IMG/VR virus record: IMGVR_UViG_3300044635_001707
Span: 924 to 64,923 of that record
Strand: one strand, 5' to 3'
Length of the DNA stretch: 64,000 nt
DNA from: a virus
Taxonomy: Duplodnaviria; Caudoviricetes
Positions 15,884 through 62,071 of the stretch are shown here, in pieces. Within the stretch, counting starts at the first letter, position 1, and every line of letters starts with the position of its first letter. Both the position numbers and the translations under genes were made by a program. The notes under the pieces were generated by a model that was given only the letters and a program-made list of their open reading frames with translations, ran no database searches and was not told where the DNA came from.

Positions 15884-16120
15884 ATGATTCTGGCATACAG
15901 ATTGGGATATCTTATGGAAAAACATCACGATACACAGGTGGAAGTCAGGTGTAGACAGGATTTAAAGGAAAGTCTGTCTAGAAAACTCATAGCTTGCGGC
16001 TATGTCTACCCCAAGGGAACGGAAGCACTGCCAAGCTTTGCTAAATTCCTGGAAGCGTTAGACAGCAAGGATTTGAAGTGGTTTAGAAAAAATTTCAGAA
16101 AAGGGGTTGACAATTCCTGA
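15884..16120 (+). CDS. Small putative DNA-binding protein, paralog of 19318-19539
   Basis: Shares SLSRKLIACGY.Y..E.L..FA.FLE.LDSKDL.WF..NF. Confidence 0.65.
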   Translation: MILAYRLGYLMEKHHDTQVEVRCRQDLKESLSRKLIACGYVYPKGTEALPSFAKFLEALDSKDLKWFRKNFRKGVDNS

Positions 16121-16135
16121 CAACTGGGATACAGT
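16107..16135 (+). promoter_or_regulatory. Sigma70-type promoter of accessory operon
   Basis: TTGACA-17 nt-TACAGT. Confidence 0.65.
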
Positions 16136-16183
16136 TTGAATATAGGAGACGAGGCAATCACCACTCACACCTCGGTTAAGTTG

Positions 16184-17326
16184 ATGAAAGATTTGCAAAA
16201 AAGACAACAAACTTTAATCAATTTAATCACCCGTGTAGGTGGTCGTCAAAACATCCAGAAATGGATGGACGAGATTTTGAAAATTGATATTAGGTTGGAG
16301 GCTAGGACGATGTTTACATACAAAGGTTATTCAATTCTTGAAGCTGGAGACGAAGCCGGATTGCATTTCAACGGCAAAAAAGTACAGACAGACCTAGTGG
16401 CTGTCTACCGGATTGATGAGTTCGTAGAATTGTTAGATGAACATGGTTTAAACTGGGCTGCCCGCCTTCGGGCAGAAGAAAAAGATCCAACAAAAGAAAA
16501 ATTAGAACCGACAAATGAAGAGCTGATAATTTATCAACAAAAACGTCAGCATCAACAGATGCTACAAGATAGCTTTGACAACAACGAATGGAAGCTTCAA
16601 TGGCGGGAGGTTTTTGTGGCTCAGACCGGAACAGCCACGGAGCGAATTCCTGTCTACAAGCATCCAGCTTTTAGAGAAAGACACAACCTCACGATAACCC
16701 ACGAAGAAGACGCGCAAGCATGGCTCGCTGCGTCAGTAGCTAGACGTGAAATTCAGCAACTAAATGAATCACGATTTAAATTGTGGGTTGATCACCACTT
16801 CTGTGGTGGTATTTTTGAATCTACAGATGATGAATATTCTTATGAAAAATGGTGTCAAATGGAAGACATCATTAACGAAAACGATTATTATTCTACTTCA
16901 CCTGAAGTAGAGAAAGCCAGAGCCTACCTTACTAAATACAAGCTTCAAGGTGAAGCTGATGAAGAAAAAATTAGACAAGAAAAAGATAGGCAAATAGACG
17001 ATAATTATCGTCTGGCCACAGAAAAAATCTTCGGCATCCCTGGCATGAAGCCAGAATACTTGGAAAGAATGCGATACGGAATATATCTCCTTGGCGGCGA
17101 CAAGGGACGGAAATATCGTTACGCCGACTTTAGTGGTGAATACTGCTACAACCACATTCAAGTGTGGCATCAAAGCAGACCTATTTCTGGTGTTGACGAA
17201 ATAACACCAGAAATGATAAGCAACGCAGCTGATTATTGCAGGGAAAAGGGATATTCAGACTACAAAAAAGCTAGAGAGGGTAAACCTGTTAAATCCTTCG
17301 AGAAATGGCTACAAACCGTAGCCTAG
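16184..17326 (+). CDS. Hypothetical protein
   Basis: Long ORF after promoter; start uncertain. Confidence 0.7.
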   Translation: MKDLQKRQQTLINLITRVGGRQNIQKWMDEILKIDIRLEARTMFTYKGYSILEAGDEAGLHFNGKKVQTDLVAVYRIDEFVELLDEHGLNWAARLRAEEKDPTKEKLEPTNEELIIYQQKRQHQQMLQDSFDNNEWKLQWREVFVAQTGTATERIPVYKHPAFRERHNLTITHEEDAQAWLAASVARREIQQLNESRFKLWVDHHFCGGIFESTDDEYSYEKWCQMEDIINENDYYSTSPEVEKARAYLTKYKLQGEADEEKIRQEKDRQIDDNYRLATEKIFGIPGMKPEYLERMRYGIYLLGGDKGRKYRYADFSGEYCYNHIQVWHQSRPISGVDEITPEMISNAADYCREKGYSDYKKAREGKPVKSFEKWLQTVA

Positions 17327-17382
17327 CCCACCTGATGAGTCCGGCTGGCGACCGGACGAAACACTCCCTTGAGTGTCGTGGG
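17327..17382 (+). ncRNA. Hammerhead ribozyme type I (HH1)
   Basis: Stem I CCCAC/GTGGG, CTGATGA, stem II GTCCGG/CCGGAC, GAAA, stem III CACTC/GAGTG, GTC site (cut after 17377). Confidence 0.95.
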
Positions 17383-17409
17383 AAGCCGTTACATACCCAC
17401 TGGAAATCT

Positions 17410-17655
17410 ATGACCACTTACTCTTTTTTATCCCAAGAATTAAACACACAACTCGGTATCGTTGCCGATGTTATCATCGCCGACGATGAATGCCACGAGA
17501 TCACCCTTACTCAGGGTGATCACGTGATAGCCGCAACGATAGACCCTTTAACTTTGATAGGATTATTTCAAATGGGAGTCAAAGTCTCCCTTTTAGACAC
17601 TGAACTCACGGAAAATCAGAAGGCAGGATTGATGTATTCTTTAGTCTTAGACTAA
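17410..17655 (+). CDS. Small acidic protein flanked by two hammerheads
   Basis: ATG at 17410 just after HH1; the longer ORF-track start runs through the ribozyme. Confidence 0.7.
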   Translation: MTTYSFLSQELNTQLGIVADVIIADDECHEITLTQGDHVIAATIDPLTLIGLFQMGVKVSLLDTELTENQKAGLMYSLVLD

Positions 17656-17670
17656 AGGCAAACTTTGTAG

Positions 17671-17726
17671 CCCACCTGACGAGTCCGGTTGGCAACCGGA
17701 TGAAACTACCACCTGGTAGTAGTGGG
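17671..17726 (+). ncRNA. Hammerhead ribozyme type I (HH2)
   Basis: CCCAC-CTGACGA-GTCCGG..CCGGAT-GAAA-CTACC/GGTAG-TA-GTGGG; stem III covaries with HH1; cut after 17721. Confidence 0.93.
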
Positions 17727-17752
17727 AAGCCGTTACACCCCACTGGAGAAGG

Positions 17753-18049
17753 ATGAACAAAGCCTTAGAGCGTCCGCTTAAATGGCATCAAGAAAAATTC
17801 TATGCCATGAGGGAACAACAAGTAAGATGCTACCTGTTGTTCCAAATGACAGAAGACGGGGAGGAGCATAACCGCTTCTTCCCATACACAAAAGAAGGAC
17901 ATAAAGCCGCTTTAGCCTTAGCCAAGAAGCTAGGGCAAAGACCAGATCGAATTCAAGCCACCACCGAGAAACTGAAATGGATTCTACCCTACGGAGTGCG
18001 CTCCGTAGAAGATTACGAAAAATGGTGTAAAGAGTGGGGTGTCGCCTGA
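17753..18049 (+). CDS. Hypothetical protein
   Basis: GGAG RBS after HH2. Confidence 0.65.
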   Translation: MNKALERPLKWHQEKFYAMREQQVRCYLLFQMTEDGEEHNRFFPYTKEGHKAALALAKKLGQRPDRIQATTEKLKWILPYGVRSVEDYEKWCKEWGVA

Positions 18050-18276
18050 TGTCCTACCGCTTAATGAAATACGCTTACGCGGTAGGCAATAGTATCATAG
18101 GCTACTCTGACAAAAACACAGTCAAAGTAGCTGGGGAAATAAATCCCCAAGGGGCAGACTGGTACACCGTCACAACGCCAGTTACCTGGTGTTGTGACGG
18201 TGACCTGTTTAAGGGTGATGATGGGGAAATCATTGCCCGTCGGGAACTAGAGAAAAGAATGGGATGGAATAAGTAA
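18049..18276 (+). CDS. Hypothetical protein
   Basis: TGATG-coupled to upstream ORF. Confidence 0.6.
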   Translation: MSYRLMKYAYAVGNSIIGYSDKNTVKVAGEINPQGADWYTVTTPVTWCCDGDLFKGDDGEIIARRELEKRMGWNK

Positions 18277-18453
18277 ATCAAAAGCGATCGCCCCTCCGAC
18301 CAAGAAGTAAGCGATCGCCTATCACACCAATCATGATGAGATTAGTGAATTATATCCTAGTTGCCGTCATTTTGATCATATCTGCTAGGGATGATCAGAC
18401 AGGTGATTGCCTGAAACGCGGCGACTGCAAAGCAAACATTACACAAAAAACAA

Positions 18454-18822
18454 ATGAAAGGAATACTATGGGGCGTGCTACAAACGCCCCTGTCCACACC
18501 CCGACGTTACCCATTGGGAACGCCACACCACGTCACACTCCAGTTCGGGGTTGACCGCGACGACTGGAAACACCTAGAGGGTGTTGTTTTCCAAGCTACG
18601 GCTAAATTTGAAGCCTGGAATGACAAAATTCAGGCTGTAGCTCTAACGCTACCAGGTGACATCCCCTGTCAGAACGCTACCCCTCACATCAGTGTAAGCT
18701 GGTGCGAGGGCATCAAGCCCTATGAGTCAAACCTGATGCTTGCGTCGGATTTTCACTCAAAGTCGCTGTCCCAAACACTAGAATTCAAAATCGAATTCCT
18801 AGCCTGGGAACAACCAGAGTAA
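18454..18822 (+). CDS. 2H phosphoesterase (cyclic phosphodiesterase superfamily)
   Basis: Two HxT/S motifs: HHVTL and PHISV, followed by KPYESN. Confidence 0.8.
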   Translation: MKGILWGVLQTPLSTPRRYPLGTPHHVTLQFGVDRDDWKHLEGVVFQATAKFEAWNDKIQAVALTLPGDIPCQNATPHISVSWCEGIKPYESNLMLASDFHSKSLSQTLEFKIEFLAWEQPE

Positions 18823-19271: not shown

Positions 19272-19303
19272 AACCCGGATTCTTCAAAGAGTCCGGGTTT
19301 TTA
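19272..19303 (+). terminator. Intrinsic terminator
   Basis: AACCCGGATTCTT-CA-AAGAGTCCGGGTT plus T-run. Confidence 0.75.
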
Positions 19304-20232: not shown

Positions 20233-23200
20233 CTATCTACCGTAGGGATTACCGCGATTAATCGAGCCACCAACTCGCATTTCCCGACGGATGCCATCAG
20301 ATACCATTGCCTGTACAGCCTGGGATAATCTGCGAGTATCAACCTCTGAATCACTGCCTACCGCCACACTTACAGGTACATTAATAGTCGTTGTGTTCCC
20401 CATTCTAGAAGCAATAGTGCCGTTGCCACCAGTACCAACAACGCCACCGTTAGCAAATCCGGCAACGCCACCTTGCAACTTGTTCCAAATAGCAGTTTCT
20501 TTGTGATTCAACACACGCTCACCCTCAGATGCAATAATGACGTGAGGTACTCGTCCGGTGAGCGATCGCTCTTTATTCAACGCTCCCACTATACCGCCGT
20601 TGGCAAAAGTTGGCAATTCTCCCACCATGCCACCAGCGAAAGCCATATTAAAAGAAGTATTGGGAAGCACGTCACCAACGAAAGAGCCGCCCGAAGCCAA
20701 CCCCGCTCCCTTGCCACCAAACAGTCCTGCGACCCATCCAAACAAAGAGTCAGTCATTCGCTTAGATGCGATATCAGCCAAAGAATCAATGAGGTTTTTA
20801 GTGATGGAATTAAATAGATCGGTTAAAGATTCACCAAAGCTTTTCGTGCTTAACAAGAACTCTTTAAATCCATTCCTGAAGCCACTCGTGGTATTCTTGA
20901 TGACAGAAGCTAACTCAGAAAATTGCAATTTAATTGCATCTAGTTTGTACTCATTTGTTAACCGCAGATTTTCACGCAATTCATTAATCTGTTCATTGGT
21001 TAATCTATTTGCCTCAGTCGCCAACTTGTTCTTCTCAATAAAATCTTCTAGTTGAATACTAGCCTTATCAAATTCCATTCCTTGGCTGCTGATAGCAGAT
21101 TGCTTATCTAATTTTTCAGCACTGAAATCTAGTCCATAGCTTTTCAGCAGAGAACTTCTGGAGTCAGAAACACCTTTGATTGAATCTTGTAAATACTGCG
21201 CTCTTTCTAAGAGTTTATTTTGGAAACTAGTATTTTCATTTATTTTATCAAGGGATGTTTTGAGCTTTATAGTTTTTTCCGTTAGAAGATATTCTTGTTC
21301 TGCTATCTCTAAACGTTTCTGCATCCTTAATTCGTCTATTTGTTTGGTTCTAAGTAAATCGGCGATAGCAGTTTGTTTTTCCTTGTATTGAATTTCGTTA
21401 TTCTTTAAAGCAATAGCATTTTCATTGTCAGCAATCTTGTTAAACTCAGGATTGAGAGGATCTAATGTTTGCAAAACCTTCAGTTGCTCTATCTTTTTTT
21501 GCTCAATATCAAGAGATGACCTAGCATCTTGTACGTCCAATCCAAACACCCTAATAACTTCGTCTCCCTCGCGTTTATCTTTAAATGCGGCAATCATGGC
21601 TGGGATATTTGCATTTAACCGTATTAAGGCTTTTGTATTAGCAATAAATTGCAGTGCATTAACTTGCGCTGTCTTACTCATCAGTTTACTTACGTCATTC
21701 CTAATTTTAGCATCATCGGGGAACTTCTTAACCAATTCAACATCAATCAAACGTTTAATGACAGGGTTTTGATTTTTAAGAGCATCCCCAGCATCACGAA
21801 TGCTCTTTTCATAGCCTTCCCTTTTTTTCTGAAGGGATCTTTCATAGTCAGCAGCCTCTAGCTCCATTCTTTTCATCGGTGACATATATGGAGACAGCCC
21901 CTCCTCGATGGTCTTTGTGCTATCTAGCTCCAAGTCTGCGATACCACTAAGAGCTTGATATATATTTTCAGTAGTTTGTTGTATTAGACGATAAAGGTCT
22001 AATTGTTGTTGCAGTTTTTCTGTGTTTGCTTGCGCTAAGTAATTAAGATCATTAGCCACATTTTTAACATTTTCTGTTTGTCCATAAAGTTCGGCAGCAT
22101 TGCTTATGATTTCTTGAAGTTTGTCGGGTTCTAAAGCCTTACGATTTATGACAGCATTGTCAAGTTTTTTCGATTCTAATTTGGCATTAGGATTAACAAA
22201 TTCTACTACAACAGGTTTTACTACAACAGGTTTTTTATTTTCATTTCGGTAAATTGGTGATCCATCTGGCGGAGCAGTATTAAACAATGCTTTTTCTTTC
22301 AATCTTCGTGCAGTCAAAGCATCAGCTACATTTTTGCTTACCCGGTCTGCTTTATTTAATTTTGCAAACTCATTAGCTGCCGCAACGTAGTCGCCAGTAT
22401 TCAGTTTAGCTAACAAAGCACTTCTTTTTAAAGCACCTTGTCCAACATTAAAGGTTAAAGAAGTTAAAGCGTCTAATTGATTTACGTTAAGCGGAACTTT
22501 AACTAACCGCTTAACTTGATTTTGTGCATCTAGTAATTCCTGATTCAACCGCTTAGTAGCTTCAGTTCGAGATATTCGTTCACTCTTAGATTTTGCTACA
22601 GTTCCGTAACCAATCGAGTACTGATTGTAGTCAGAATACGCCTTGGAGCTAAAGTTTTCAAACTTCTTCACCATCTCCATTAGTCGAGAAGATAACGCTG
22701 GTGATTTAGTTTTAACTAATGGTTTAGGTTTAGGTTTAACTAATGGTTTAGGTTTAGGTTTACTAGTGGGATTAGGTTTAGGTTTACTAGTGGGATTAGG
22801 TTTAGGTTTACTAGTGGGATTGGGTTTAGGTTTACTAGTGGGATTGGGTGTCACCATTGGTGTAGCAAAAGGTGTTTTACCGGATGGTGACGTAAAAGAT
22901 CCAGTGCCTTTAAAATTACGTTTTGGATCTGTAGATAACTTTTGGAATTGCGCTATTTGAATAGGGAATCCTGGTAAACTTGCAACCTCAACCGAGTTTA
23001 TACGAGATGGTAATTTTATAGATGACTGAGTTGTAGGAGGTGTAGAAGGTGTAGGAGAAAAAGGCACAGGAGGCAAGGTAGGCACTACAAGACGTGGTCG
23101 TGACTGAGGTGAACCCAAAGCAGGTTCAAACCAATCGAGAGAACCTACAGACGAATTTCCTGTAAATAGCCTTGGCGTGGATTGTAATTTAATAGATAAA

Positions 23201-26200
23201 GAGTCAATTTTTTCCCCTATATTGTCTATTGTTTTACCTACAGATACAAAAGAATTATTAAGTGAATTAGTGGCATTAACAGCATCAGTACCTATATTTT
23301 TAGCTACTTTTTGTGTTTGGGAATTGGTGCTGTTAACACGAATATTAACAATTTCTAATTGATTATTAAATCTTTTGACTTTCTCGTCATCAAATGGAAT
23401 TATCTTACCTGGAAGACTTTGCTGTAATTCAGCAGCACGTAATTTAATAGCATCAAGGTTGTTTCTATAATCAATCTGTTGTTTTCTAAAGTCTAGTTCT
23501 CTTTTCTCAATCTCTGTGCTTTTGGAAATTATATTAATAATTCCTTCAACAAACTGAGTATAGATATTATTCCCTGCGCCTATCAATGCCTGTCTTAACC
23601 TATTTTGTATTTTTGATCCTTCAAGAGTAATCCGAGCTTTCTCAAACTCAATACTAGCTGATTGCGCTTCCCTGACCGAGGTTCTGTAATATTCAGCAAC
23701 TTGCTTAGTCTGGTCAATCAAAGCTTGCTTCATATCACGTCGGGCTTTGGCAGTCTCTAGGGCATTTTGAGTTAATGATTCACGGTCTTTCATTATGTCT
23801 TCAGTCAACTTATCGTATTCTGATTGCGCTTCGGCCAAGTTAGTGCCGCCCACCGCAATTACCTGGGCTATCTTATCAAGAGCAATCTGATTAGTTTTAA
23901 GTTTTTCTTCTAATAAAGTTCGGGAATCATTTAATCCTGCAAGTTGAATGTTTGCTAATTCAGGTGCTATTTGTTGTGATGTTCCTGCACTTGAATAGAC
24001 TTTAGATTGACTTAAATTAGACTTGGATCTATTGGCGGAAGAGGCTCTTTCAAACTTAATGTTTGCATCTTTAACAGCGTTTGTCGCTTGAGTGTAGAGC
24101 ATTTCTTCTACTGGTTTTACGTCAAATGGCTTAACTCCTGCTATTTGTTTTTTAAGTTCCTCAATTTGTCTCTGAGTCTCTTGAACAGCAGGAGTAATTA
24201 ATGCCCCTTGAATACCTTCAACTTCTCCTAAAGTTAATTGTTCTTTATATTTTTCTAGCTTTTTAAGTTGATTTTCAAGTATAGGCAATGGTGAGCCAAA
24301 ACTATCAACTAATTCTTGCCGTCTTTTGTAGAGTTGTTGAATTAATTGCTTAACTTCGCCCTGTTCTTTGCGAACTTTATCGCTAGGTAATGCCTTGCTT
24401 AATTCCACTCCTTTTTTAGTGGCATTAATTAGCTGCTTGTCAACGTCTTTTATCTCTTGAAAATTGAATGCCCGTTGCACAGAAGCTTTGATTAGTTTTT
24501 GCTGATTCTTTTTCTGAGCCTCTAAAACTTTTAGCTCATCTTCAAGTTTAATTGTACCTGCGTCAGAACCGTCACCCATGCTTAACGCAAAAGCATCAGT
24601 GGAAGATGCAGCCATGAGATTTCTAGATGCAGAAACAGCCGCCCTTCTCTCATCAATCTCTGCTTGTTTCTTCTTGATTTTCCCATCAAGTTCTTTATCT
24701 ATTCGCTGATTTTCTGGAGTATTCTCTATTTGGAAACTAGCAGCAGCTAGAGCTACAACATTCCTCATCTGTTTAGATTTGTTTTCTAGCTCTTTAAACC
24801 CAGGTGAGTTTTGTAAATCTTTAATTTCTTGGGGACTAGCACCACTGTTTTTCTTGTCTGCTATGGCCGCTAGTCTTCTTTTGTTATTGTCTTTAATTTC
24901 CTGATTAAGCTTAGATATCGCTGGGGTATTATTAAACGTATTTTGCTGTTCCGATGTTAACGGTTTTATATCAGCCATAAAGTCGCCAGGCTTACCTGTA
25001 AAGCCTTGACTAGCACCAAATTCTTTTAAGTTCTGAATATTCTTCTTCTGGTCTTCAAAATATTTTAGGATTTGTTGCTGGGCATTGGTTAAACGCGCGT
25101 TTTCCCCAAGGTCAAAATAACCTTCTAATTTATTATCTGCGATTAGTTGCTTTTGCTTCCCTGTCAGTTTAGGAGCAAACAAATCAAGAGCTTTTGTAGC
25201 GAGAACTATGGCAGCAATAAAACCACCTATTGAAACGACAATAAGACCAAGCGGACTCATTATAGCGGTAATCAATGGAGTTACCGCCATAGCAAGTCTA
25301 CCAAAAATAGAAACGGGGGCAACCGGACCCGCTATAAGAGCCTTGTTTGCGGCTATGGTTGCAGCCGTGGATACAGCAGAATTTAGAATTGAACTTAGAA
25401 CTGATATCCCAGAAGCAAAAGCCGCACCCGCACCAGCAGCACCCAAAGCACCAACTCCCACCGCATCCATGAGAGAGCCGCTCGCAGAATCGCGTTTATT
25501 CCTCTCTTTAATTGCATCATCCCACTTAAAGTCGCCACCGCCCCAAAAGCTTCTGATATCCAGTTGTATGCCTTTAGAGGGTAATGTATCCGCTAACGTA
25601 CCACCTAGCTTAGTGACACTATTCGTAGCTTTATCAAAGGAATCGGCAGTTTTTTGAACATTAGCCCGTATTTCAGTTAGTCCATTGTTTAATTCCTTGG
25701 TAGTTTTTGACAACGAATCACCCATGGGATTACTGAAGTCACCTTTAGAGAACATCAAAATACCAAAAGCTACAGCCACATGAGTTAATGCTGTTCGCAA
25801 AAATCCCATGGTTGCAGAAAATATTTTTATTCTCGCTTCACTAGCAGCCATAGCAGAACTCATGGAGGTCATCATTAGTTCAGTAGCGATTTTCATTGAA
25901 GTCATGACGCCCACAAAAGCTTTAGCTGCGCCGCCAAACATTCCTGTAACTGCACCTATGAACCCTTTAAATGCAGGAGCTAAGGCCATGACCATTAGCC
26001 CTGTACCCTGCTCAAACATGAAGACCATCGCCAGTAATTCTACAAAACCGGGAGGAATAATCTTAAAGAATCCAGAAAATACACCTTTAAGCCAATCAAT
26101 AATATTACCAGCCTGTTCTGCACCTTGAACCAAACCACCAAACATTGATGAGAAACTAAAGTTACCACCACTCATTGAGCGCATCACTGAGTCAACCGTA

Positions 26201-29200
26201 CTAAATGTGGCTACAACTGCATTCGTGACACCATCCATCATGTTTGTGATTAGGTCTTTTTCTGCACCCAGCCAATTATCGGCCACGTCCGCAGTTACAC
26301 CGATAATCATCGGCATCATGTTGGTGGCAACGGCTGTAAAGGTTGCCATTAGAAGGTTCTGCAACGAACCAAACAACACAACCAAGGGTTTTACCTTAGT
26401 CATAATCGTAGTTAGTCCAATGGCTATGGTTGCCGCAAAACCAATGGCAAATGCTTGTCCTAAAGGTATCAACGCGCCAAGTGTATTACTGAACAACGCC
26501 AAACCGTCCGCAAACGTGCCAACAAACCAGCCTAAAGTGCTACCAAGTTTGTCAGTAAATATAGTTGTAATTTCAAAACCAACATTACCCAATTTATTTA
26601 AAGCTACAACCAAGCCTCCAGCTTGATTAGCAGCAGATGCACCATAATCTTGATTCAGGACTTTAGCTACATTAGGCAAGATATCTTGAGATAAAATGCT
26701 ACCAGATGCTACTAATGCATTCATTTCAGGAACAGACACGCCCATAGACTTAGCAAATACACCCATGGCAGGCGGGAATTTCTCACCTAATTGCTGTCTT
26801 AGTTCTTCCATTGACAGCTTACCTTTTGCCAAGATTTGTGTATACGCCATGAACACCAAACTAGCATCTTGTCCACTAATGCCTAATGCACTTAAAGATG
26901 CCGTAATACCCTCAAACAAATCCTTGACACCCTGTCCTTCCATCTTGCTACCTCTAGCCGCAATAGCTAATTGAGAGTAGGAGTTGGCAGCAACTTCAGA
27001 AGGGACATTCATTTTGGCGGCTACGTCTTTAGCATACTTAAATTCCGCTTCACCACCAGCCTTTGAACCACCCAAGAAAGTAAAGCGTCGCTGTAAAACT
27101 TCTACTCGCTGGATACCATCTAGCATCTTGGATATGTGAGGCATCACCATACTCACAGCCGCACCTATACCACCAATAATCGGAGCTAAGGGTAAGAATA
27201 GGGGCGATAGAGAAGCGAATAAACTTGTCACGGGGGCTAAAGTTGTGGCAAGAGACCCCATGAATTGCAGCATATTGGGGAACATTGCATCAGCTTCTTT
27301 TGAACTGCTAAACAGAGCTTTTTTTACTCCTGTTCCCATCTGGTTGTACATTTCCTTAAACTGGTCTTGGGTAGCAATTGTACCGCGAGTCATTCTTCTG
27401 AAAATCAAGCCGACAGCATCGCCAAAGTTAGCTTGTCCTATTGCTTTCTTAGCGTTGTATTCTAAATCATCCTTGGCATTAGCAAGATTACGCACTGAAT
27501 CTTTAAATCCTTGAGTCAGTGCCTTACCCATATCAAAGCCCTTTTCCTTAAACTTAGCTTGTAATCCGGTCAGGGTAGCCATTAGTCCTGCTGTGGCTGT
27601 GTTTAAAAGTTTAGGGTCTATGTTCTGGAGTTGCTCCGACGACATCCCAGCTTTTTTCAAGCCTTGCATCAATAAACCTTTCAGTGCTTCTTGGTCATTG
27701 GTTGCATAAGCTTGTGTGAGTCTACCAACAACTCCGGTAGTATTAGGATTAGCAGCTAAATCACGGCGTGTTTCCTCTAGTTTTCCCGACTGCTTCATAG
27801 AGGTGTAATCTGAGAAAGTTACACCGCGCTCTTTTAATACCTTGGCTGTCAGGTAGTCTAGTCGCCTTTGCGCTCTGGGAACACCAAGCTTAAACCTGGA
27901 GCGTTCAATATCACCCATTGCAAACATGAGGTTTCGTTCATTTTCAGAGATTGCAAGGGGTTTACCGATAATATCTTGCCGTGCCTTCTCCAGTTCCTCC
28001 CTTGACATGGCTTCACGAGTAGTAGTATCAACGCCACGTCTTCTTAATGCGGCTTTAGTTAATGCATCTAATCTTTCTGGTGATATTGTTCCAGACTTCA
28101 TAGCACGCTCTAAGGCTTTTTCTGTCTTACTTCTTTGTACACCAATGGAACTAATAACATCTGCTATTTTCCCTGATTGCTTGTTGATACTACGTCCTGT
28201 CATTCCTTGAATTACAGAAGTAGGAATCATGGGAATATTGAGATTTTCTAAAACACTATCTACCGCAGTGTTACCTAAATTTTCAATCAATTCTCTACTA
28301 GCTTGACCGCCTTTTGCATTGGACAATCCCGCTTTTTTCCTATTAGCTAAAGTCTGTTCTTGCAGGACTCTTTCAACAGTAGGTGCTTGATTCTTGGGGT
28401 TAGATCGTGTAGATGGGTCTAGTCCCAAGATTCCACTAAAGGTATTCATCAATGGACCGAATAACCCCATAGCAAGAGAAAGTGGACCACCAATACCCGC
28501 AGTACCTACAAGATTAGGTACAGGATTCATTATTTTAGAAATTGCGCCCAATATTCCGTGAGCTTTCCCACCAGATAAAGAAGTTAAGTTAATCCTGGTA
28601 ACAGAACTTAATAGCTTTGTTAAAAACCCACCTGGTTTTAAAACATCATTATTGAGTAGATTCTTAACAATAGAATTACCCAGTCCTAACGTTAATCCCC
28701 CAATTATGGGCATCAATGGCTTCAGCATGGGGATTAGCTGCATTGTTTTAGGAATAAACTTCATAAACCAAGGCAATGCAGACTGAGCTTGAGACAGCAA
28801 TCCTTTGTAAAGCGGTTGTTTTAAGGTATCAGCGAGGGAAAATAGAGCGGCGTTTACAGCATTACGCATTACCTGCCCTAATGAAGCATAGCCGGATAAT
28901 GTACTTTGCCGAATACTATCACCAACTGCGGTAAATAAATTGGTGACTAAGTCCTTACCTAGTTGTAAGTATTGATTCGTTGCGTTTTGTGGCGTACGAA
29001 CTCTTATTGGTAAAAATCCGTCTGCGGGTGGTGGTGGTGGCGACGATAGGGATGGTGGTGCTGGTGGTATTGGTGGTGGTGGTGGTGATGTTGGGGCAAA
29101 GGGAGAAGGAGTGACAGCGGGAGGTTTGGCTGGTGATGCAAGTATTGGGAAAAACCCAAGCCCAGTAGGTAAACTAGGTTTGATTGTGGTAGATTTAAAT

Positions 29201-32200
29201 GGTTCAGGAACAAGAGAGGTAGAGACCGTTGGTGGCAAAACAACGGGAAGTCTCGCCCCTACTTGTCGAGTGAGCGATCGCACTACAGAAGAGCGCGGCG
29301 CGTTCATAAGGTCATCCAAAACAGTTGCAAACCCGGTCAAACTCGCAGTCATGCTCCTATTGAGCAGAGCATTTAGATTAACCAGTAAGTCTTTGTTTTT
29401 ATTAATCAACGCTTGTGTGTTGACTTCTTGTTGTGTAATAGTTGCCCTTGCCGCAGTGCTAGGTCTGGACGGCAATATCAGTCGCGCGTCTGGATTTGCG
29501 GTAGTGCTGTTTGGCAATATTAACCGTGCATTTGGATTTACGGTAGTGCTGTTTGGTAATACTAATCGTGCATTTGGGTTGGGCGCGAAACTGCGGGGCG
29601 TAATTATTGTGCTAACAGGCTGTGGTACAACATTTTCCGTAACAGGTGAAGATTTTACATCCCTTCTTGCTTGCTGTAAAATTCCTGGTATTTCTGCCAT
29701 AGAAGCTCCAGTAATTCTAGCCATAACTTTACTAACTGTCGTGCTACTTGCTAGAATTTCCATTGCCTTAGAGGCGTTTAAGTCATTATATTTACCTTCT
29801 CTAAACCCTTTGGCAATCCTTTGATTTTGAGATTCTACTGTATTGGCGAAATGTTCAACTCTAGCTTTTTCTGATTCCGTCGCTGTAGCACTTTCATTGA
29901 CAGTTTTAAGCATTAATTCAGCAATTCTTTTATTGGCCAAAACCAAAGCTGCAACCGCACCATTTTCAAAGCCTTCGCCAAAATTCAATCCGATAGACTC
30001 CATTACCTTTGATGGTGATGCAATGCCAAATACTTTTTTGACTGCGCCTAAAACACCCTTAGCAAAACCAATTACTATCCCCAATACACCGCCGTTAGCG
30101 GATAAAAAGCCTTGCCCAAAAGAAGAGATTAGATTAATACCTACCTCTTTAAGCCCACCACCCTTACTAAATGCAGACTTAGCATTGTTGAATAAATTCC
30201 CTAAGAGGTTATTATTTCCCGTTGGCTGCTGGGATTCTTGCCCGTTGCCTAAAACGTATTCTTGGATTTTGGGATGATTTAAGAATTGCCCAAAATTACC
30301 TTTAGATGCAATATAAGGATTTGCTGCCAAATCTGTTAAATCGTCCAAACCCTTTCTGTCTAAGCGGTGTGTCTGAATATATGGATTGCCACCGATTAAT
30401 TCAGAATGAACTGAATGCCCTAATTGAAAATCATTGCCAGACTGTGTATTAAGAAAAGAAAAAAGCTCACGCCCTGTTTTTTTGTTGTATTTAGTAAATG
30501 CCTTGGTGTTACCAAATAAATTCTCTTCAATGCCTAATAAGCCTCGTAGCCATTTCTTTGACTCCAAAAATTTATATATCTTACTGCCTAAATTTTTAGG
30601 TAACTTAAACGGTGTATTTTTATCCGTATCGGTGTCTTGATGCCAGTCGTAGACATCGTTAATTTGCAAACCTCCGTCTTTGGTTTGTGTGTAATTGAAT
30701 CCCCCTAGTGTATGAGCCAGCGTGGGCAATGTCTTGTGTTTAACCATGCCCACCACGCCACCGTCAGGAAAATAACCATCACCTTTTTCGGCTGATTGCA
30801 TCATATTGAAAATAGTTGCAATTTCAGCCTCTCTAGCCAATTGTGGATTCAGCTTATGAACCTGGGTTGTACCTTGATAAAATGCCCCTAAATGCCTCAA
30901 GGGTGTTCGGATTGATTTTGGAACTAAATTAGTGTCTGCAACACCCATCATCGCAGTCCCTAGAATCATTCCTGGGATTGTCGCTTTACTTGCTTTCTTA
31001 GCATTATCAAAAACTTTTTTTGTAGTTTCTGAATTACTAGATACGGCATTTTTAATTGCCTGATCGTAAGATTCTATTCCTTCTGATGGTATTGATTTGA
31101 TATTTTTTAAACCATTGCCAACAACATCAGTTAGTAAATCACTAGCACCGGAAACATCAATTACACCTTTTTTGATTCCAATAGCCAATCCCGATGCAAT
31201 CATCAACCCCAATGCAATCATCACTTTAGATGGTGATTGAATTTCCATCTTGGCTTTAACAGCCTTAATCAAGTCGTCCAACATGGCGCGGGCAGCATCG
31301 GATACACCACCAGCAGCGTGTTGAATACCTTTCTTTAGTCCTGCATCTACTTCTATACCCAGACTTTCCGCTTGGGCGACATAGCCTTTTAATTGCTGGT
31401 CAAACAGTTTTTTGTCTGCAAGGTTTAGCTTGCCCAGACTCTTTTCTGCGGTGCTTGTATTTCTGGAAATACTAGACTTACCACTGCTATGAATCCTAGA
31501 TAATTCACTGTTAATATCTTTACTGAAACCCGCGTCTTGTCCAGTTTTTACATATCTATCAATAGTAGAAATTGCTTCTTTTGACCTGGATACAAAATTA
31601 GAAACCTCAGACCTTGCGGCACTGATATCTTCTTTTGTACCAGCATCACTGATGGCATATTTAACCTTTGCCTGAATCCTCTTGTACTCATCGCTGAAAT
31701 ATTTGTTTATTGCTATCAGCGACTGTTCAATACTATCCAAAGAAACCTGAGTATATTTCTTGGTATTTTTAGACGATGGAATAGAAGGTAATGGTGTTAA
31801 ATTATTTTCTGATTTTGTGGCGTTTTTATAGCCTTCAGATATATCAATATTTTTATGTATTTCAGATTGAATTGTTTTAAATAATGGCTTAATTTGCTCA
31901 GGAATATTTACAGGAATAGGCTCTAATTCCCGTTTTTGTTGAGGTGGTGGTAATGGAGATTTGTTTGCTTTAGGTGGCAGTTGCTTAGGTAGGGGTGCCG
32001 CATCTTGCCAAGGGTCTGAGATTGTTTTAGCAACAAAAGGTTTACTGGTTTTTGCCGTAGGCTCTGTTGACTTAACACTAACAGCAGCATCGCTCAACGC
32101 TTTAGCCGCATTTTTTAAATCTGATGCGGCTTCCTTGAGAATATCTGAAGAAGATTTAGCGATTGGTTCTACTGGTTTTGCCGACACTCCAGTCTTTAGA

Positions 32201-60536: not shown

Positions 60537-60953
60537 ATGACTTTTGTGAAACCAACACTACCAAATAAAACAGTTAAAAAATACGATAAAGTCCTATTCG
60601 GTAGTGGGTCTAGCCGCCCCTACAGTCCGTATACTCTACTTACCAACGTAACTGTCACCACAAAGGATACACGCAGTACAGGAACAGTTAAATTCAATAT
60701 TTCTGGCACGTTGCCAGATGGTAGAACAATACAAACAGAAGGATTTTTCTACAAGAAAGGGCGCAGTCCTTGGAAGTTCAGCGGTGCTGGTCTAGCACCA
60801 TTGGAATATTCCGGTGGTATGTTAAGTCACTGCCAGGATGCAGTGCATTTTATGTTTGAGCCTGGAGAATGGGATAGGTCTTATCGCTACAAATTCCCTG
60901 AAACGCTTGTAACGGATACATGGTCTGCCAAGCAGACGTGGCAAGAATGGTAA
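60537..60953 (+). CDS. Hypothetical protein, first gene of ribozyme-punctuated operon
   Basis: AAGGAG RBS after promoter at 60477. Confidence 0.7.
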   Translation: MTFVKPTLPNKTVKKYDKVLFGSGSSRPYSPYTLLTNVTVTTKDTRSTGTVKFNISGTLPDGRTIQTEGFFYKKGRSPWKFSGAGLAPLEYSGGMLSHCQDAVHFMFEPGEWDRSYRYKFPETLVTDTWSAKQTWQEW

Positions 60954-61009
60954 GCCGAAACGGGAGCAATCCCGTCCGCACAGGATGACAACCTGCGCGC
61001 TGACGAGGC
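60954..61009 (+). ncRNA. Hammerhead ribozyme type II (HH3)
   Basis: GCC-GAAA-CGGGA-GCAA-TCCCG-TC-stem I (CGCACAGG..CCTGCGCG)-CTGACGA-GGC; cut after 60976. Confidence 0.88.
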
Positions 61010-61028
61010 AAGTTAAAGGAAGGAGAAT

Positions 61029-61256
61029 ATGAAAGCACTAGAAAGACCTGCGTACATAGAGTACGCACGACTAAAAGCCTCCCAGCTGGGAGAAGAAGGT
61101 CGCGTCAAAAGACAGATCAAGTCCAATCCAAAACTTGCGAAGTTCTGGAACTTGGGACACAGTGCCGTTGTCCCCAAGTCATTCCCCTCACGGGAATGCG
61201 AAATAGCCTTTTTACTTGGGCAAAGAAACGCCCAAGCATCCGACATGGATGAATAA
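61029..61256 (+). CDS. Small protein between HH3 and HH4
   Basis: AAGGAG RBS. Confidence 0.7.
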   Translation: MKALERPAYIEYARLKASQLGEEGRVKRQIKSNPKLAKFWNLGHSAVVPKSFPSRECEIAFLLGQRNAQASDMDE

Positions 61257-61257
61257 C

Positions 61258-61313
61258 TCCACCTGATGAGTCCGGCTGGCAACCGGACGAAACACTCTCT
61301 TGAGTGTCGTGGG
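61258..61313 (+). ncRNA. Hammerhead ribozyme type I (HH4)
   Basis: TCCAC-CTGATGA-GTCCGG/CCGGAC-GAAA-CACTC/GAGTG-TC-GTGGG; cut after 61308. Confidence 0.95.
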
Positions 61314-61340
61314 CAGCCGTTACATCCCACTGGAGAATTT

Positions 61341-61640
61341 ATGATTTATTCTGTTGGTTTTGATGAACAGGAATTGAGCAAGGTCGGGCTGGAAGCCGAC
61401 AAACTCTTGTCCGGACAAGAGTTGACCTATGACAAAAAATTAATAACATTTACCTCTTTCTCCTCCTATGAGGGGGAGGAAGAGTGTGACAGAGAGGAGA
61501 CCGACCTCCTCCCTGGAGATACGGTGATTGTGTCCTGGTGGACTCCCTTTGCCTACATCGAAAGGATGAGTCAGGACAAAATAAAAGTCATTGTTCTGGA
61601 AACAGAACACGGAGGTATTATCAGGGTAATTTCATCTTAG
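61341..61640 (+). CDS. Small acidic protein between HH4 and HH5
   Basis: GGAG RBS and ATG at 61341. Confidence 0.7.
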   Translation: MIYSVGFDEQELSKVGLEADKLLSGQELTYDKKLITFTSFSSYEGEEECDREETDLLPGDTVIVSWWTPFAYIERMSQDKIKVIVLETEHGGIIRVISS

Positions 61641-61641
61641 T

Positions 61642-61697
61642 CCCACCTGATGAGTCCGGCTGGCAACCGTCCGAAACGCTCCACTGAGTGTCGTGGG
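61642..61697 (+). ncRNA. Hammerhead ribozyme type I (HH5), two mismatches in stem II
   Basis: CCCAC-CTGATGA-GTCCGG/CCGTCC-GAAA-CGCTC/GAGTG-TC-GTGGG; cut after 61692. Confidence 0.8.
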
Positions 61698-61730
61698 CAG
61701 CCGTATAATTACACTGGATAAACTAAATTA

Positions 61731-61756
61731 AACCCGTCAGAAATGACGGGTTTTTT
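61731..61756 (+). terminator. Intrinsic terminator
   Basis: AACCCGTCA-GAAA-TGACGGGTT plus T-run. Confidence 0.8.
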
Positions 61757-62071
61757 ATTGCCCATTCTCTAATAGTTCCGCTAAAGTCTCCAGAAGCCAC
61801 ACCAAATCCTCTCTAGGCATCCATCCCAGCTTGTTAAATCTGTCCAGAATTTGCCGGAATCGCTCTTGCTTGTCGTCCATGATTAAAATATGCCGTTCGT
61901 GTGTCCCTACCTCAAACAATTGTATGTGAATAATTGTAGAGATAAATTTAATCCAATTAGCAAACCAATCGGCATAGTCTATTAATTGTGCAATCAATAT
62001 TAGGCATAAATAAACCCGCTAAAACTGTATTGATTTTAGCGGGTTTTAGTCATTGGTGCAATTCAAAAAGG

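What the first reader, a model, noticed from the sequence alone, without database searches (positions are those of the whole stretch)
17327..17752. Second ribozyme-bracketed ORF cassette 44 kb away, using the same hammerhead+RBS module
Seen: HH1 and HH2 flank an 81-aa ORF, giving a predicted 344-nt product (17378-17721). The roughly 80-nt unit (hammerhead + AGCCGTTACA..CCCACTGGA + start) is nearly identical to HH4, yet every cargo ORF is unrelated. Stem III shows compensatory change (CACTC/GAGTG vs CTACC/GGTAG) and the site varies (GTC vs GTA). Inference: the ribozyme works as a repeat unit in a gene-cassette system where ORFs are the variable spacers, exchanged by recombination or a retrozyme-like RNA route. 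HH5, with no ORF behind it, looks like an empty slot.
Basis: partly seen in the sequence, partly recalled or inferred. Interest (0 to 1): 0.85.

Follow-up and report, generated by a model that had tools for sequence, protein, structure and literature searches.

The report
Hammerhead-flanked small genes in a cyanophage
Two real self-cleaving hammerhead RNA motifs flank a small gene in a phage operon, a known arrangement in which related phages gain, lose and reorder whole ribozyme-plus-gene units at the ribozyme repeats.

Summary
HH1 (17326-17387) and HH2 (17670-17731) are type I hammerheads with complete cores. Their three stems and a loop II/3'-tail pseudoknot covary across 19 copies. They flank an 81-aa ORF, and the predicted product is 344 nt.

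The claim that the cargo ORFs are unrelated is wrong. The HH1 and HH4 ORFs are distant paralogues (hhalign 96.6%). The HH2 and HH3 ORFs share an invariant N-terminal ALERP motif.

The cassette idea is partly supported. Between conserved anchor genes, related contigs carry 1 to 4 hammerhead-ORF units. L012 has exactly one unit more than the window. L107 has exactly one unit fewer, with a hybrid hammerhead at the junction. L064 has an ORF behind the HH5 equivalent. L007 and L091 carry the units in different orders.

Recombination between the DNA repeats explains all of this. I found no reverse transcriptase, no RtcB and no circular junction.

The most likely role is processing of a polycistronic mRNA, leaving each ORF a 5' hairpin next to its ribosome-binding site. 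Clustered hammerheads flanking variable prophage genes were described in 2011 (PMC3088659). Cleavage was not tested.

The parts
16107..16135 (+). promoter-like site (TTGACA-17-TACAGT) just upstream of the operon that contains HH1 and HH2
   Evidence: Consensus scan. This is a match to a consensus only. The number of promoter-like sites in the region does not exceed the shuffles.
16136..17326 (+). 396-aa ORF; conserved upstream anchor gene of the variable array; its stop codon abuts HH1
   Evidence: ORF list. No Pfam or PHROG family. Homologues of 360-431 aa precede the hammerhead array in 14 of the related loci tabulated.
17326..17387 (+). HH1: type I hammerhead including the pseudoknot partner; predicted cleavage between 17377 and 17378 (GUC|G)
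   Evidence: R1 model 86.2 bits. Rfam RF00163 24.0 bits, below the gathering score of 34. Covariation of stems and pseudoknot.
17378..17409 (+). Leader of the 3' product: GUGGG (17378-17382) can pair with CCCAC (17396-17400); AGCC (17384-17387) is the pseudoknot partner of loop II; UGGA (17401-17404) is Shine-Dalgarno-like
   Evidence: The minimum-free-energy fold is this hairpin at -6.4 kcal/mol with the SD-like bases unpaired; the z-score is not significant. A 5'-terminal helix of 5 bp or more occurs in 50 of 111 unique products, against 9.8% of shuffled leaders.
17410..17655 (+). 81-aa ORF: a short (internally deleted) member of the 'YSFL' family of about 120-aa phage proteins of unknown function
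   Evidence: The family has 118 clusters, none with a name or Pfam domain. No Pfam or PHROG hit.
17670..17731 (+). HH2: type I hammerhead; predicted cleavage between 17721 and 17722 (GUA|G); G10.1-U11.1 wobble
   Evidence: R1 model 81.7 bits. Not listed by Rfam at E up to 10. The same wobble is present in the orthologues L005 and L012.
17722..17752 (+). Leader 2: GUGGG (17722-17726) / CCCAC (17739-17743) hairpin, then GGAG (17745-17748) before the ATG at 17753
   Evidence: Fold at -6.9 kcal/mol with the SD free.
17753..18049 (+). 98-aa ORF with the N-terminal motif KALERP
   Evidence: Only one homologous cluster was found. No Pfam or PHROG hit.
18454..18822 (+). 122-aa ORF with a weak 2',3'-cyclic phosphodiesterase-domain match; conserved downstream anchor of the array
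   Evidence: Pfam tRNA_lig_CPD, E 7.8e-7, 29.3 bits, cut-off 23. Homologues follow the array in 10 loci.
19272..19299 (+). terminator-like hairpin (12 pairs plus a T run) that ends the operon
60953..61017 (+). HH3: type II hammerhead of the second cluster
   Evidence: Rfam RF02276 30.6 bits, gathering score 37, E 4.8e-4. Conserved in L107, L010, L058, L059 and L066; in L107 the A-C mismatch of stem I is a G-C pair.
61029..61256 (+). 75-aa ORF beginning MKALERP
   Evidence: Replaced by a roughly 192-aa ORF in L010, L058, L059 and L066.
61257..61318 (+). HH4: type I hammerhead
   Evidence: R1 84.1 bits. Rfam RF00163 26.9 bits, gathering score 34.
61341..61640 (+). 99-aa ORF (MIYSVGFD...), a distant paralogue of the 81-aa ORF
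   Evidence: hhalign 96.6%, E 4.8e-10.
61641..61702 (+). HH5: type I hammerhead with two mismatches in stem II, followed by no ORF
   Evidence: R1 74.2 bits. The orthologues in L010, L058 and L107 have an intact stem II. L064 has a 133-aa ORF behind the equivalent copy.
61730..61757 (+). terminator hairpin with a T run behind HH5
   Evidence: Read from the sequence.

Best explanation
HH1 and HH2 are cis-acting type I hammerhead ribozymes inside a polycistronic accessory-gene operon (about 16.1-19.3 kb) of an uncultured phage, probably a cyanophage.

How it most likely works:
- Each ribozyme sits between the stop codon of one gene and the ribosome-binding site of the next. It probably cuts the transcript there.
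- The downstream mRNA would then begin with 5'-OH-GUGGG. This can fold back on a conserved CCCAC to give a short 5'-terminal hairpin directly in front of an unpaired Shine-Dalgarno sequence.
- The upstream mRNA would end in the folded ribozyme with a 2',3'-cyclic phosphate.
- Each small ORF would thus get its own defined mRNA ends, independent of its neighbours. The engineered RiboJ insulator achieves the same effect.

How the cassettes arise:
- The ribozyme plus leader is held constant by selection on the RNA, so the copies are 62-150-bp direct DNA repeats.
- Homologous recombination between these repeats adds, deletes, replaces and reorders whole ribozyme-ORF units among related phages. This produces the cassette-like picture.

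Shown: the motifs, their covariation, their position relative to stop and start codons, and the unit-level differences between relatives.
Inferred: cleavage itself, the hairpin's effect on stability and translation, and recombination as the cause of the differences.
For: - Motif and structure. There are four hits at 74-86 bits against 13.7 for the next best. Paired cells are 96.7%, and 12 of 21 pairs show double changes, including the loop II/tail pseudoknot; 0 of 500 shuffles reach this, and slid controls reach at most 45% paired.
- Operon context. A promoter-like site lies at 16107 and a terminator at 19272. HH1 begins at the stop codon of the 396-aa ORF. The ATG follows the cleavage site by 32 nt (HH1) and 31 nt (HH2).
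- Leader. A Watson-Crick helix of 5 bp or more starts at nt 1-2 of the 3' product in 50 of 111 unique products. The rate is 9.8% in shuffled leaders and 4 of 111 when the partner is sought inside the ORF. The hairpins fold at -6.4 to -6.9 kcal/mol and leave the SD free.
- Tight coupling to one gene family. All 18 of the 18 YSFL-family members (out of 118 clusters) whose called ORF runs 8 or more residues upstream carry the in-frame peptide encoded by GUGGGAAG.
- Unit-level differences among relatives. One to four units lie between conserved anchors. L012 has one unit more and L107 one unit fewer, with a hybrid hammerhead. L064 has a filled HH5 slot. L007 and L091 differ in unit order.
- Breakpoints. 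HSP end points fall in ribozyme units 81 of 438 times against 21.5 expected; 0 of 2000 random placements reach this.
- Published precedent. Clustered hammerheads flank individual genes of varying identity in prophages; three tandem arrangements cleaved in vitro, and processing of long phage transcripts was proposed (PMC3088659, passages).
- RiboJ comparison. RiboJ is a ribozyme plus hairpin upstream of the RBS and raises mRNA and protein levels (PMC6206723, passages).
Against: - No cleavage data exist for these copies.
- The three RNA-library runs are held as contigs only, so they cannot show RNA ends. DNA carry-over in them is not excluded.
- No copy reaches the Rfam gathering score.
- HH2 carries a G-U wobble at 10.1-11.1, next to the core. 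HH5 has two stem II mismatches. Either may be slow or inactive.
- The hairpin energies are not better than those of shuffles (z -0.04 to -0.27).
- In the uncleaved 90-mers, the minimum-free-energy fold prefers the downstream hairpin over stem I. That would inhibit cleavage unless folding is co-transcriptional. The pseudoknot is not modelled in that fold.
- The hairpin is absent from other hammerhead subfamilies in the same scans (one search list).
- A terminal ribozyme with no ORF behind it (HH5, L009, L011 and others) is not needed for a 5'-UTR role.
- The enrichment of HSP ends at ribozymes is partly expected for any conserved island between fast-evolving genes.
Confidence: 0.6

Rival explanations
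1. RNA-circle or retrozyme-like route. Double cleavage releases the 344-nt RNA, whose own ends rebuild a hammerhead. The RNA is ligated into a circle by the ribozyme's reverse reaction or by a host RtcB. The circle is then translated or copied back into DNA, and this moves the cassettes.
For: - Every ORF in both clusters is bracketed, including a terminal ribozyme with no ORF behind it.
- Stem I (CCCAC/GUGGG) and the pseudoknot bases are the same in all four window copies. The 3' end of one unit can therefore pair with its own 5' end.
- Hammerhead products carry the 5'-OH and 2',3'-cyclic phosphate ends that RtcB joins (established knowledge; also stated in PMC8782182, passages).
Against: - No RVT_1 and no RtcB match in the 64.9-kb record, which is only 67% complete by CheckV.
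- No joint of any kind in three RNA runs and one DNA run. These are contigs only, so this is weak evidence.
- The repeat that bounds the extra unit in L012 runs about 60 nt into the ORF. L107 keeps a hybrid hammerhead. Both are as expected for DNA crossing-over.
- Perreault et al. looked for circular or spliced products of tandem prophage hammerheads and detected none (PMC3088659).
- Retrozyme cargo is non-coding, as I recall; here every unit codes for a protein.
Confidence: 0.06
2. Regulated switch. The downstream CCCAC competes with the upstream CCCAC for GUGGG, so that cleavage, and with it expression of each ORF, is tuned or conditional rather than constitutive.
For: - The minimum-free-energy fold of the uncleaved 90-mers pairs GUGGG with the downstream CCCAC.
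- CCCAC is kept at a variable distance in many copies.
- HH5, which has no ORF, has lost it (TACAC).
- Perreault et al. suggest regulated cleavage for some phage hammerheads.
Against: - No ligand-binding or sensor element is evident.
- The two helices have the same five base pairs, so no covariation can separate them.
- The upstream strand is transcribed first, which favours the active fold.
- L010's HH4 equivalent has TACAC yet is followed by an SD and an ORF.
Confidence: 0.15
3. Site-specific cassette system of the integron type. The hammerhead DNA would be an attachment site used by a recombinase.
For: Whole units are gained and lost at the repeat. The phage has a tyrosine-integrase-like gene at 474-1550 (PHROG phrog_1, E 6.5e-7).
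Against: - The integrase lies 16 kb away. It is the kind expected for prophage integration.
- The junctions lie anywhere within 79-150 nt of shared sequence rather than at a fixed point.
- The repeats are under RNA-level covariation.
- L064 differs by a deletion between two leader copies, not between two ribozymes.
Confidence: 0.03
4. Decaying or selfish repeats with no use to the phage, so the hammerhead-like sequences no longer cleave.
For: Scores below the Rfam threshold. A wobble next to the core in HH2, mismatches in HH5, and a shortened stem III in L009.
Against: - Complete cores and compensatory changes in all three stems and the pseudoknot.
- A constant position between stop codon and SD in many contigs.
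- HH5's defects are not shared by its orthologues.
Confidence: 0.05

Closest known systems
Clustered type I/II hammerhead ribozymes of prophages (Perreault et al. 2011, PLoS Comput Biol, PMC3088659; passages read)
   Same: Several hammerheads lie close together and flank single genes or short blocks in phage DNA. Gene identities vary. Types I and II are mixed. Pseudoknots stabilise the fold. The proposed role is cutting long phage transcripts into gene-length mRNAs.
   Different: Here the leader behind the ribozyme (hairpin plus SD) is conserved with it. The units recur with the same few protein families. Related contigs differ by whole units at the ribozyme. I found none of these points in the passages I read; the supplements are closed.
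PeSL regulatory cassettes of T4-type phages (Arbiol et al. 2010, PMC2839356; abstract read)
   Same: A short conserved regulatory repeat flanks small non-essential genes in a hyperplastic region. Insertions, deletions and replacements between close relatives are bounded by the repeat.
   Different: The PeSL repeat is a promoter plus terminator stem-loop acting on transcription. Here the repeat is a self-cleaving RNA plus translation leader inside one transcript. DNA mini-circles were shown for PeSLs and not here.
RiboJ synthetic insulator (described in PMC6206723; passages read)
   Same: A hammerhead-class ribozyme is followed by a hairpin directly upstream of the RBS. After cleavage, every insulated gene has the same hairpin-bearing 5' end.
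   Different: RiboJ is engineered from the sTRSV ribozyme with a separate 23-nt hairpin. Here the hairpin reuses the 3' strand of stem I, so the active ribozyme and the hairpin are mutually exclusive folds. The effect on expression is untested.
Retrozymes (Cervera et al. 2016, PMC4918200; search listing and abstract start only)
   Same: Hammerheads bracket a unit that can be released as an RNA with ligatable ends.
   Different: Retrozymes are eukaryotic, non-coding and non-autonomous retroelements. They propagate through circular RNA and need a reverse transcriptase. Here the units are protein-coding, lie in a phage operon, and no reverse transcriptase or circle was found.

Membership tests
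Hammerhead ribozyme, type I (Rfam RF00163) | Conserved core C3-U4-G5-A6-N7-G8-A9 ... G12-A13-A14, the A15.1-U16.1 pair, and cleavage after H17 | tested here: met
   All four copies have CUGA(U/C)GA ... GAAA and a GU(C/A) site. The core list follows Perreault 2011, methods passage.
Hammerhead ribozyme, type I (Rfam RF00163) | Three helices around the core, with helix I open (5' and 3' ends leave through helix I) | tested here: met
   Helices I, II and III are 98-99% paired over 16 distinct copies. Double changes occur in 2, 3 and 4 of their pairs.
Hammerhead ribozyme, type I (Rfam RF00163) | Score at or above the curated gathering score (34 bits) | tested here: not met
   No hits at gathering. 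HH1 scores 24.0 and HH4 26.9 bits. HH2 and HH5 are not listed at E up to 10. The longer stems and loops than in the 45-position model cost score.
Hammerhead ribozyme, type I (Rfam RF00163) | No mispair directly next to the core (10.1-11.1, 1.1-2.1, 15.1-16.1), the acceptance rule of Perreault 2011 | tested here: inconclusive
   HH1, HH4 and HH5 have G-C at 10.1-11.1. HH2 has a G-U wobble there. HH5 has mismatches at 10.2 and 10.3.
Hammerhead ribozyme, type I (Rfam RF00163) | Tertiary contact between helices I and II (here a pseudoknot of loop II with the 3' tail) | tested here: met
   Helix 3: GGC(U)/(A)GCC changes to GAC/GUC and GGU/ACC. Three of 4 pairs show double changes.
Hammerhead ribozyme, type I (Rfam RF00163) | Self-cleavage | not testable with these tools
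   RNA runs were available as contigs only.
Hammerhead ribozyme, type II (Rfam RF02276), for HH3 | Permuted topology with helix II open, complete core, and a score at gathering (37 bits) | tested here: inconclusive
   Full-length match with all core bases, but 30.6 bits, E 4.8e-4. Conserved in 5 related loci, with one compensating change in helix I.
Clustered prophage hammerheads (Perreault 2011) | Several hammerheads within a few kb flanking single genes or short gene blocks of a phage or prophage | tested here: met
   Phage hallmark genes are present. Two clusters hold 2 and 3 ribozymes.
Retrozyme | Non-coding unit bounded by hammerhead-bearing repeats and mobilised by reverse transcription of a circular RNA (features recalled, apart from the abstract start) | tested here: not met
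   The units encode proteins. No RVT_1 in the record. No circular junction in contigs (weak).
Integron gene cassettes | Adjacent integron integrase with recombination at a fixed point in attC sites (recalled) | tested here: not met
   The only integrase-like gene is at 474-1550, 16 kb away. Junctions lie within long shared stretches.
PeSL-type modular shuffling | Indels and replacements between close relatives bounded by a repeated regulatory motif | tested here: met
PeSL-type modular shuffling | The motif is an early promoter plus terminator stem-loop | tested here: not met
   The repeat is a ribozyme plus translation leader inside an operon.

The most novel reading that the evidence does not exclude
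The hammerhead-plus-leader may be a selected, portable boundary for gene cassettes in cyanophage accessory regions. Any ORF that lands behind a resident ribozyme is at once cut free and given a working 5' end. Units would travel between co-infecting phages as circles, either DNA mini-circles formed by recombination between two ribozyme copies or ribozyme-ligated RNA circles, and dock at any other copy. The cargo may be anti-defence proteins. The main cargo family has a fold whose nearest solved matches are Cas1 N-terminal domains, and the array is followed by a 2H-phosphoesterase-like gene.
Probability: 0.12. Interest if true: 0.8.

Novelty: new variant of a known kind. Interest (0 to 1): 0.5.

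Why it matters
What self-cleaving ribozymes do in bacteria and phages is still called largely elusive (PMC6765202, passages). This locus adds three things.

- **A comparative series.** The ribozyme, a 5' hairpin and the ribosome-binding site travel together as one expression module. That gives a concrete, testable mechanism resembling a natural RiboJ.
- **Clean cases of genome plasticity at the ribozyme.** Relatives differ by exactly one ribozyme-ORF unit. One junction is a hybrid ribozyme. This shows that an RNA element kept constant by selection can also act as the homology that shuffles phage accessory genes.
- **A cultured test system.** The isolated phage vB_AphaS-CL131 carries two matches to the model, one of them of this subfamily. 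Its genome paper does not contain the words ribozyme or hammerhead in the main text.

Tried and rejected
- Rfam at gathering threshold found nothing in the window.
- RNA evidence. Three metatranscriptome runs (X18-X20) and one DNA run (X5) were laid. They are contigs, with no joints and no start or end tables. Contigs break at the repeated ribozymes, as assembly graphs do, so nothing can be said about cleavage or circles. The runs hold contigs over parts of 17376-17680 and 17768-18313. This shows presence in RNA libraries, not transcription.
- First hairpin test, allowing G-U pairs, had no power: 69% observed against 56% in shuffles. I replaced it with a Watson-Crick-only test.
- Pseudoknot test. 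I asked whether each ribozyme's loop II fits its own tail better than the tail of the preceding unit, which would argue against circularisation. It was uninformative: of 38 pairs with different tails, 5 fitted their own tail better, 23 were equal and 10 fitted it worse. The loop parsing was crude.
- Two scripts gave nothing because of my own regex errors.
- The 81-aa and 98-aa ORFs have no Pfam or PHROG family. There is no tblastn match of the 120-aa family member in 50,697 phage records. There is no blastn match of the 100-nt HH1 unit there either. The ESM Atlas gave only unnamed clusters below 0.9.
- Fold of the 120-aa family member (pLDDT 93). Foldseek found no PDB match at E 1e-3 or better. 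The nine best VIA-align rows are all Cas1 N-terminal domains, but at Z 5.7-6.4. That is below the level the tool calls specific, so I do not assign a function.
- TerL gave no close cultured relative; the best match is 45%.
- Literature. Searches for hammerheads as recombination or cassette boundaries in phages, or in cyanophages, found no such paper. Supplements of PMC3088659 (alignments and gene-context figures) are closed and may contain similar loci.
Full report
**1. What is at the coordinates**

- The stretch 17327-17752 runs from the first base after the stop codon of a 396-aa ORF to the base before the ATG of a 98-aa ORF.
- It holds two hammerhead motifs. The strict core pattern CTGAYGAG..GAAAC occurs four times in the window, all on the + strand, at 17332, 17676, 61263 and 61647. 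The expectation is 0.04, and 0 of 100 shuffles reach four.
- HH1 reads CCCAC-CUGAUGAG-UCCGG-CUGGCGA-CCGGA-CGAAAC-ACUC-CCUU-GAGU-GUC|GUGGG.
- HH2 has the same plan, with stem III UACC/GGUA and the site GUA.
- The ORF between them is 17410-17655, 81 aa.

**2. Are the motifs real?**

- Rfam gives nothing at its gathering scores.
- With the E-value threshold, HH1 scores 24.0 and HH4 26.9 bits for Hammerhead_1 (gathering 34). HH2 and HH5 are not listed. A type II hammerhead (HH3, 60953-61017) scores 30.6 bits (gathering 37).
- To test structure I collected relatives by pattern scans. These gave 2 loci in genome contigs, 10 and then 44 in viral contigs, and 63 in metagenome contigs.
- On 19 close copies (16 distinct), 96.7% of cells pair and 12 of 21 pairs carry double changes. 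None of 500 shuffles reaches any of the five measures. Sliding the partner by 1-3 columns drops pairing to 26-45%.
- The fourth helix in that count is a pseudoknot between loop II (GGCU) and the bases just 3' of stem I (AGCC). It changes to GAC/GUC and GGU/ACC in other copies.
- Perreault et al. describe this kind of contact for all three hammerhead types (PMC3088659). It explains why the conserved 'unit' is longer than a minimal hammerhead.
- A covariance model built from these copies finds exactly four sites in the window (74-86 bits; next best 13.7).
- Weak points. HH2 has a G-U wobble at 10.1-11.1, shared by its orthologues. HH5 has two mismatches in stem II that its orthologues lack.

**3. 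Context**

- The record is one 64,923-bp IMG/VR virus contig, 67% complete by CheckV.
- It has an integrase, a DnaB-like helicase, a large terminase and a head protein.
- The octamer GCGATCGC occurs 17 times against 0.24 expected. From recall, this is the HIP1 palindrome typical of cyanobacteria.
- The only DNA match among cultured phages is Aphanizomenon phage vB_AphaS-CL131.
- The holders among sequencing runs are labelled lake or freshwater metagenomes.
- A cyanobacterial host is therefore likely but inferred. TerL has no close cultured relative.
- HH1 and HH2 lie inside an operon bounded by a promoter-like site at 16107-16135 and a strong terminator at 19272-19299.

**4. The cargo is not unrelated**

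- The 81-aa ORF belongs to a family that starts M(T)IYSFL and is normally 118-123 aa long. The window's copy lacks about 33 internal residues.
- The family has 118 clusters at 90% identity. None has a name or Pfam domain.
- The ORF behind HH4 (MIYSVGFD..., 99 aa) is a distant paralogue. The profile-profile probability is 96.6%, E 4.8e-10, over 89 columns. Plain BLASTP gave only 36% over 44 residues.
- The ORFs behind HH2 (98 aa) and behind the type II HH3 (75 aa) both begin (N)KALERP. ALERP is invariant in 8 of 8 aligned relatives. The codons differ between the two window copies, so the motif is conserved at the protein level.
- So both clusters of the window encode one member of each of the same two families, in opposite order.
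- Among 59 ribozyme units of the close subfamily, cargo falls into a few recurring families. Contigs present in two collections were not removed from this count.
  - YSFL: 16.
  - YSVGFD: 5.
  - KALERP types: 4+3+1.
  - A FIIxNW family: 4.
  - Three families with 2 members each.
  - Six singletons.
  - Fifteen units had no ORF by my filter. Two of these are false negatives with a weak SD (L012 and L070 at 5342). One runs off its contig.
- The link between ribozyme and YSFL gene also holds when ascertained by protein. All 18 of the 18 family members whose called ORF runs 8 or more residues upstream carry the peptide that GUGGGAAG encodes in frame.

**5. Do relatives differ by whole units?** Yes.

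- The array lies between conserved anchors: a gene of about 400 aa upstream, and a 2H-phosphoesterase-like gene plus a 133-aa gene downstream.
- Between these anchors the number of units varies:
  - One unit in L003, L098 and L006.
  - Two units in the window.
  - Three units in L012, and in L112 from a second contig.
  - Four units in L007 and L091.
- L012 has exactly 457 nt more than the window: a ribozyme plus a full-length YSFL gene. The window's unit aligns to both L012 copies over about 150 nt (ribozyme, leader and the first roughly 60 nt of the ORF).
- L107 lacks exactly the unit between HH4 and HH5. The two alignment blocks overlap on a single ribozyme whose 5' part matches HH4 and whose leader matches HH5.
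- L064 carries a 133-aa ORF behind the HH5 equivalent. It rejoins the window's sequence at 61703, immediately 3' of the ribozyme.
- In L010, L058, L059 and L066 the 75-aa ORF between HH3 and HH4 is replaced by one of about 192 aa. Similarity ends right after HH3 and resumes 12 nt before HH4.
- L007 and L091 hold the same four units, but the full-length YSFL unit lies before the KALERP unit in one and after it in the other.
- Over 78 locus pairs, the ends of HSPs of 150 nt or more fall within ribozyme units 81 of 438 times, against 21.5 expected. None of 2000 random placements reaches this. Part of this enrichment is expected for any conserved island between fast-evolving genes.

**6. Mechanism of the rearrangements**

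- All cases fit homologous recombination between direct DNA repeats. The evidence is the long ambiguous junctions, a hybrid ribozyme, a tandem paralogue, and one deletion between two leader copies.
- The closest described parallel is the PeSL cassette of T4-type phages. There, a promoter-terminator repeat bounds indels and replacements and forms DNA mini-circles (PMC2839356, abstract).
- For an RNA route I found no reverse transcriptase and no RtcB in the record. No joint appeared in the runs laid.
- Perreault et al. report that they could not detect circular or spliced products of tandem prophage hammerheads.
- The route is not excluded. The record is incomplete, the runs are contigs, and identical stem I and pseudoknot bases in all window copies would let a unit's ends rebuild a ribozyme.

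**7. What the ribozyme probably does**

- In nearly all copies of the close subfamily, a Shine-Dalgarno sequence and a start codon follow the cut by 20-35 nt.
- The 3' product starts with GUGGG, and a CCCAC follows at a variable distance.
- A Watson-Crick helix of 5 bp or more from nt 1-2 occurs in 50 of 111 unique products. The rate is 9.8% for shuffled leaders and 4 of 111 when the partner is sought in the ORF. The copies are not phylogenetically independent.
- The hairpins of HH1, HH2 and HH4 fold at -6.4 to -6.9 kcal/mol and leave the SD unpaired. HH5 has none.
- This is the design of the engineered insulator RiboJ: a ribozyme, then a hairpin, then the RBS. RiboJ raises mRNA and protein levels (PMC6206723).
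- Here the hairpin reuses the 3' strand of stem I. The active ribozyme and the hairpin therefore exclude each other, and the thermodynamic fold of the uncleaved RNA even prefers the hairpin. Cleavage would have to be co-transcriptional, or the competition could be regulatory.
- Terminal ribozymes without an ORF occur in two settings. Some lie before a terminator (HH5, L010, L058, L107). Others lie before a promoter/operator-like palindrome (L009, L011, L017, L020, L027, L048, L088).
- These terminal copies suggest that the folded ribozyme left at the 3' end of the upstream mRNA also matters. That is inference.

**8. Novelty**

- The kind is known. Perreault et al. [quoted passage not shown] They noted that the gene identities are not constant and proposed processing of long transcripts.
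- A 2019 review still calls the bacterial roles largely elusive.
- Three things were absent from the papers my four searches returned and from the passages I read:
  - The conserved ribozyme-hairpin-SD module.
  - Its tight link with a few protein families.
  - Whole-unit gains, losses and permutations at the ribozyme.
- The supplements were closed, so similar loci may be shown there.

**9. A cultured system**

- vB_AphaS-CL131 (MG209611) has two model hits.
  - The first, at 105173-105233, scores 57.6 bits and has the same GUGGGAAGCC...CCCAC leader.
  - The second, at 98381-98440, scores 38.2 bits and overlaps an annotated 24-aa 'gp130'.
- Each hit lies within a few bases of the end of the upstream annotated CDS.
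- The CL131 genome paper has no occurrence of 'ribozyme' or 'hammerhead' in its main text.

**10. Verdict**

Cassette-like unit turnover at the ribozyme is real. Its likely cause is DNA recombination between repeats, and the RNA route has no support.
- Interest is moderate. This is a well-documented new variant of a known arrangement, with a testable mechanism and a cultured system.

Noticed in passing
window 18454-18822: The 122-aa ORF matches the 2',3'-cyclic phosphodiesterase domain of fungal tRNA ligase (Pfam tRNA_lig_CPD, E 7.8e-7). Homologues follow the hammerhead array in 10 related loci and in phage CL131 (gp125). An enzyme of a family that opens 2',3'-cyclic phosphates, next to ribozymes that make such ends, may be more than coincidence.
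   Followed up: partly
L012:4622-4981 (family of window 17410-17655): The 120-aa YSFL family member gives a confident AlphaFold model (pLDDT 93, pTM 0.80). The nine best VIA-align rows are all Cas1 N-terminal domains (Z 5.7-6.4, rmsd 2.5-3.2 over 70-76 residues). Foldseek's top rows are a casposase and Synechocystis Cas1 at E 0.05-0.08. This is too weak to assign, but a stand-alone Cas1-N-domain-like phage protein would be a candidate inhibitor of CRISPR adaptation.
   Followed up: partly
L113:3671-3730 and L116:1874-1934 (MG209611 98381-98440 and 105173-105233, minus strand): The cultured Aphanizomenon phage vB_AphaS-CL131 has two hammerhead model hits (38.2 and 57.6 bits). The first overlaps the annotated 24-aa CDS gp130, which is probably not a gene.
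   Followed up: partly
L009, L011, L017, L020, L027, L048, L088 (downstream of a hammerhead): In seven loci a hammerhead is followed not by an ORF but by a conserved AT-rich stretch with the inverted repeat TTGTCAAA ... TTGACAAT. A KALERP-type ORF starts about 100 nt later. This looks like a promoter with an operator placed directly behind the ribozyme.
   Followed up: no
window 18284-18318: Two GCGATCGC palindromes lie 27 nt apart in an intergenic spacer. This 40-nt piece is identical to part of a Calothrix plasmid. Contigs of four runs have loose ends on both sides of it, so it is a short repeat shared with other DNA. GCGATCGC occurs 17 times in the window against 0.24 expected.
   Followed up: partly
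window 20233-33579 (minus strand): A single open reading frame of 4448 aa takes up a fifth of the window. It was not examined.
   Followed up: no
P0001 (199 aa): One database member of the YSFL family is two copies fused head to tail in one ORF, with no ribozyme between them. A unit boundary has evidently been lost.
   Followed up: no
L066:54-83: A second, partial copy of the 5' half of the type II hammerhead HH3 lies about 490 nt upstream of the complete one. This suggests that type II copies are also duplicated with their units.
   Followed up: no
window 17408 (run X18): An RNA-library contig of depth 44 matches the start of the 81-aa ORF but has a different 29-nt sequence before it (a CCCCA...UGGGG hairpin, no hammerhead leader). 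Some relatives therefore express this family from another leader.
   Followed up: no
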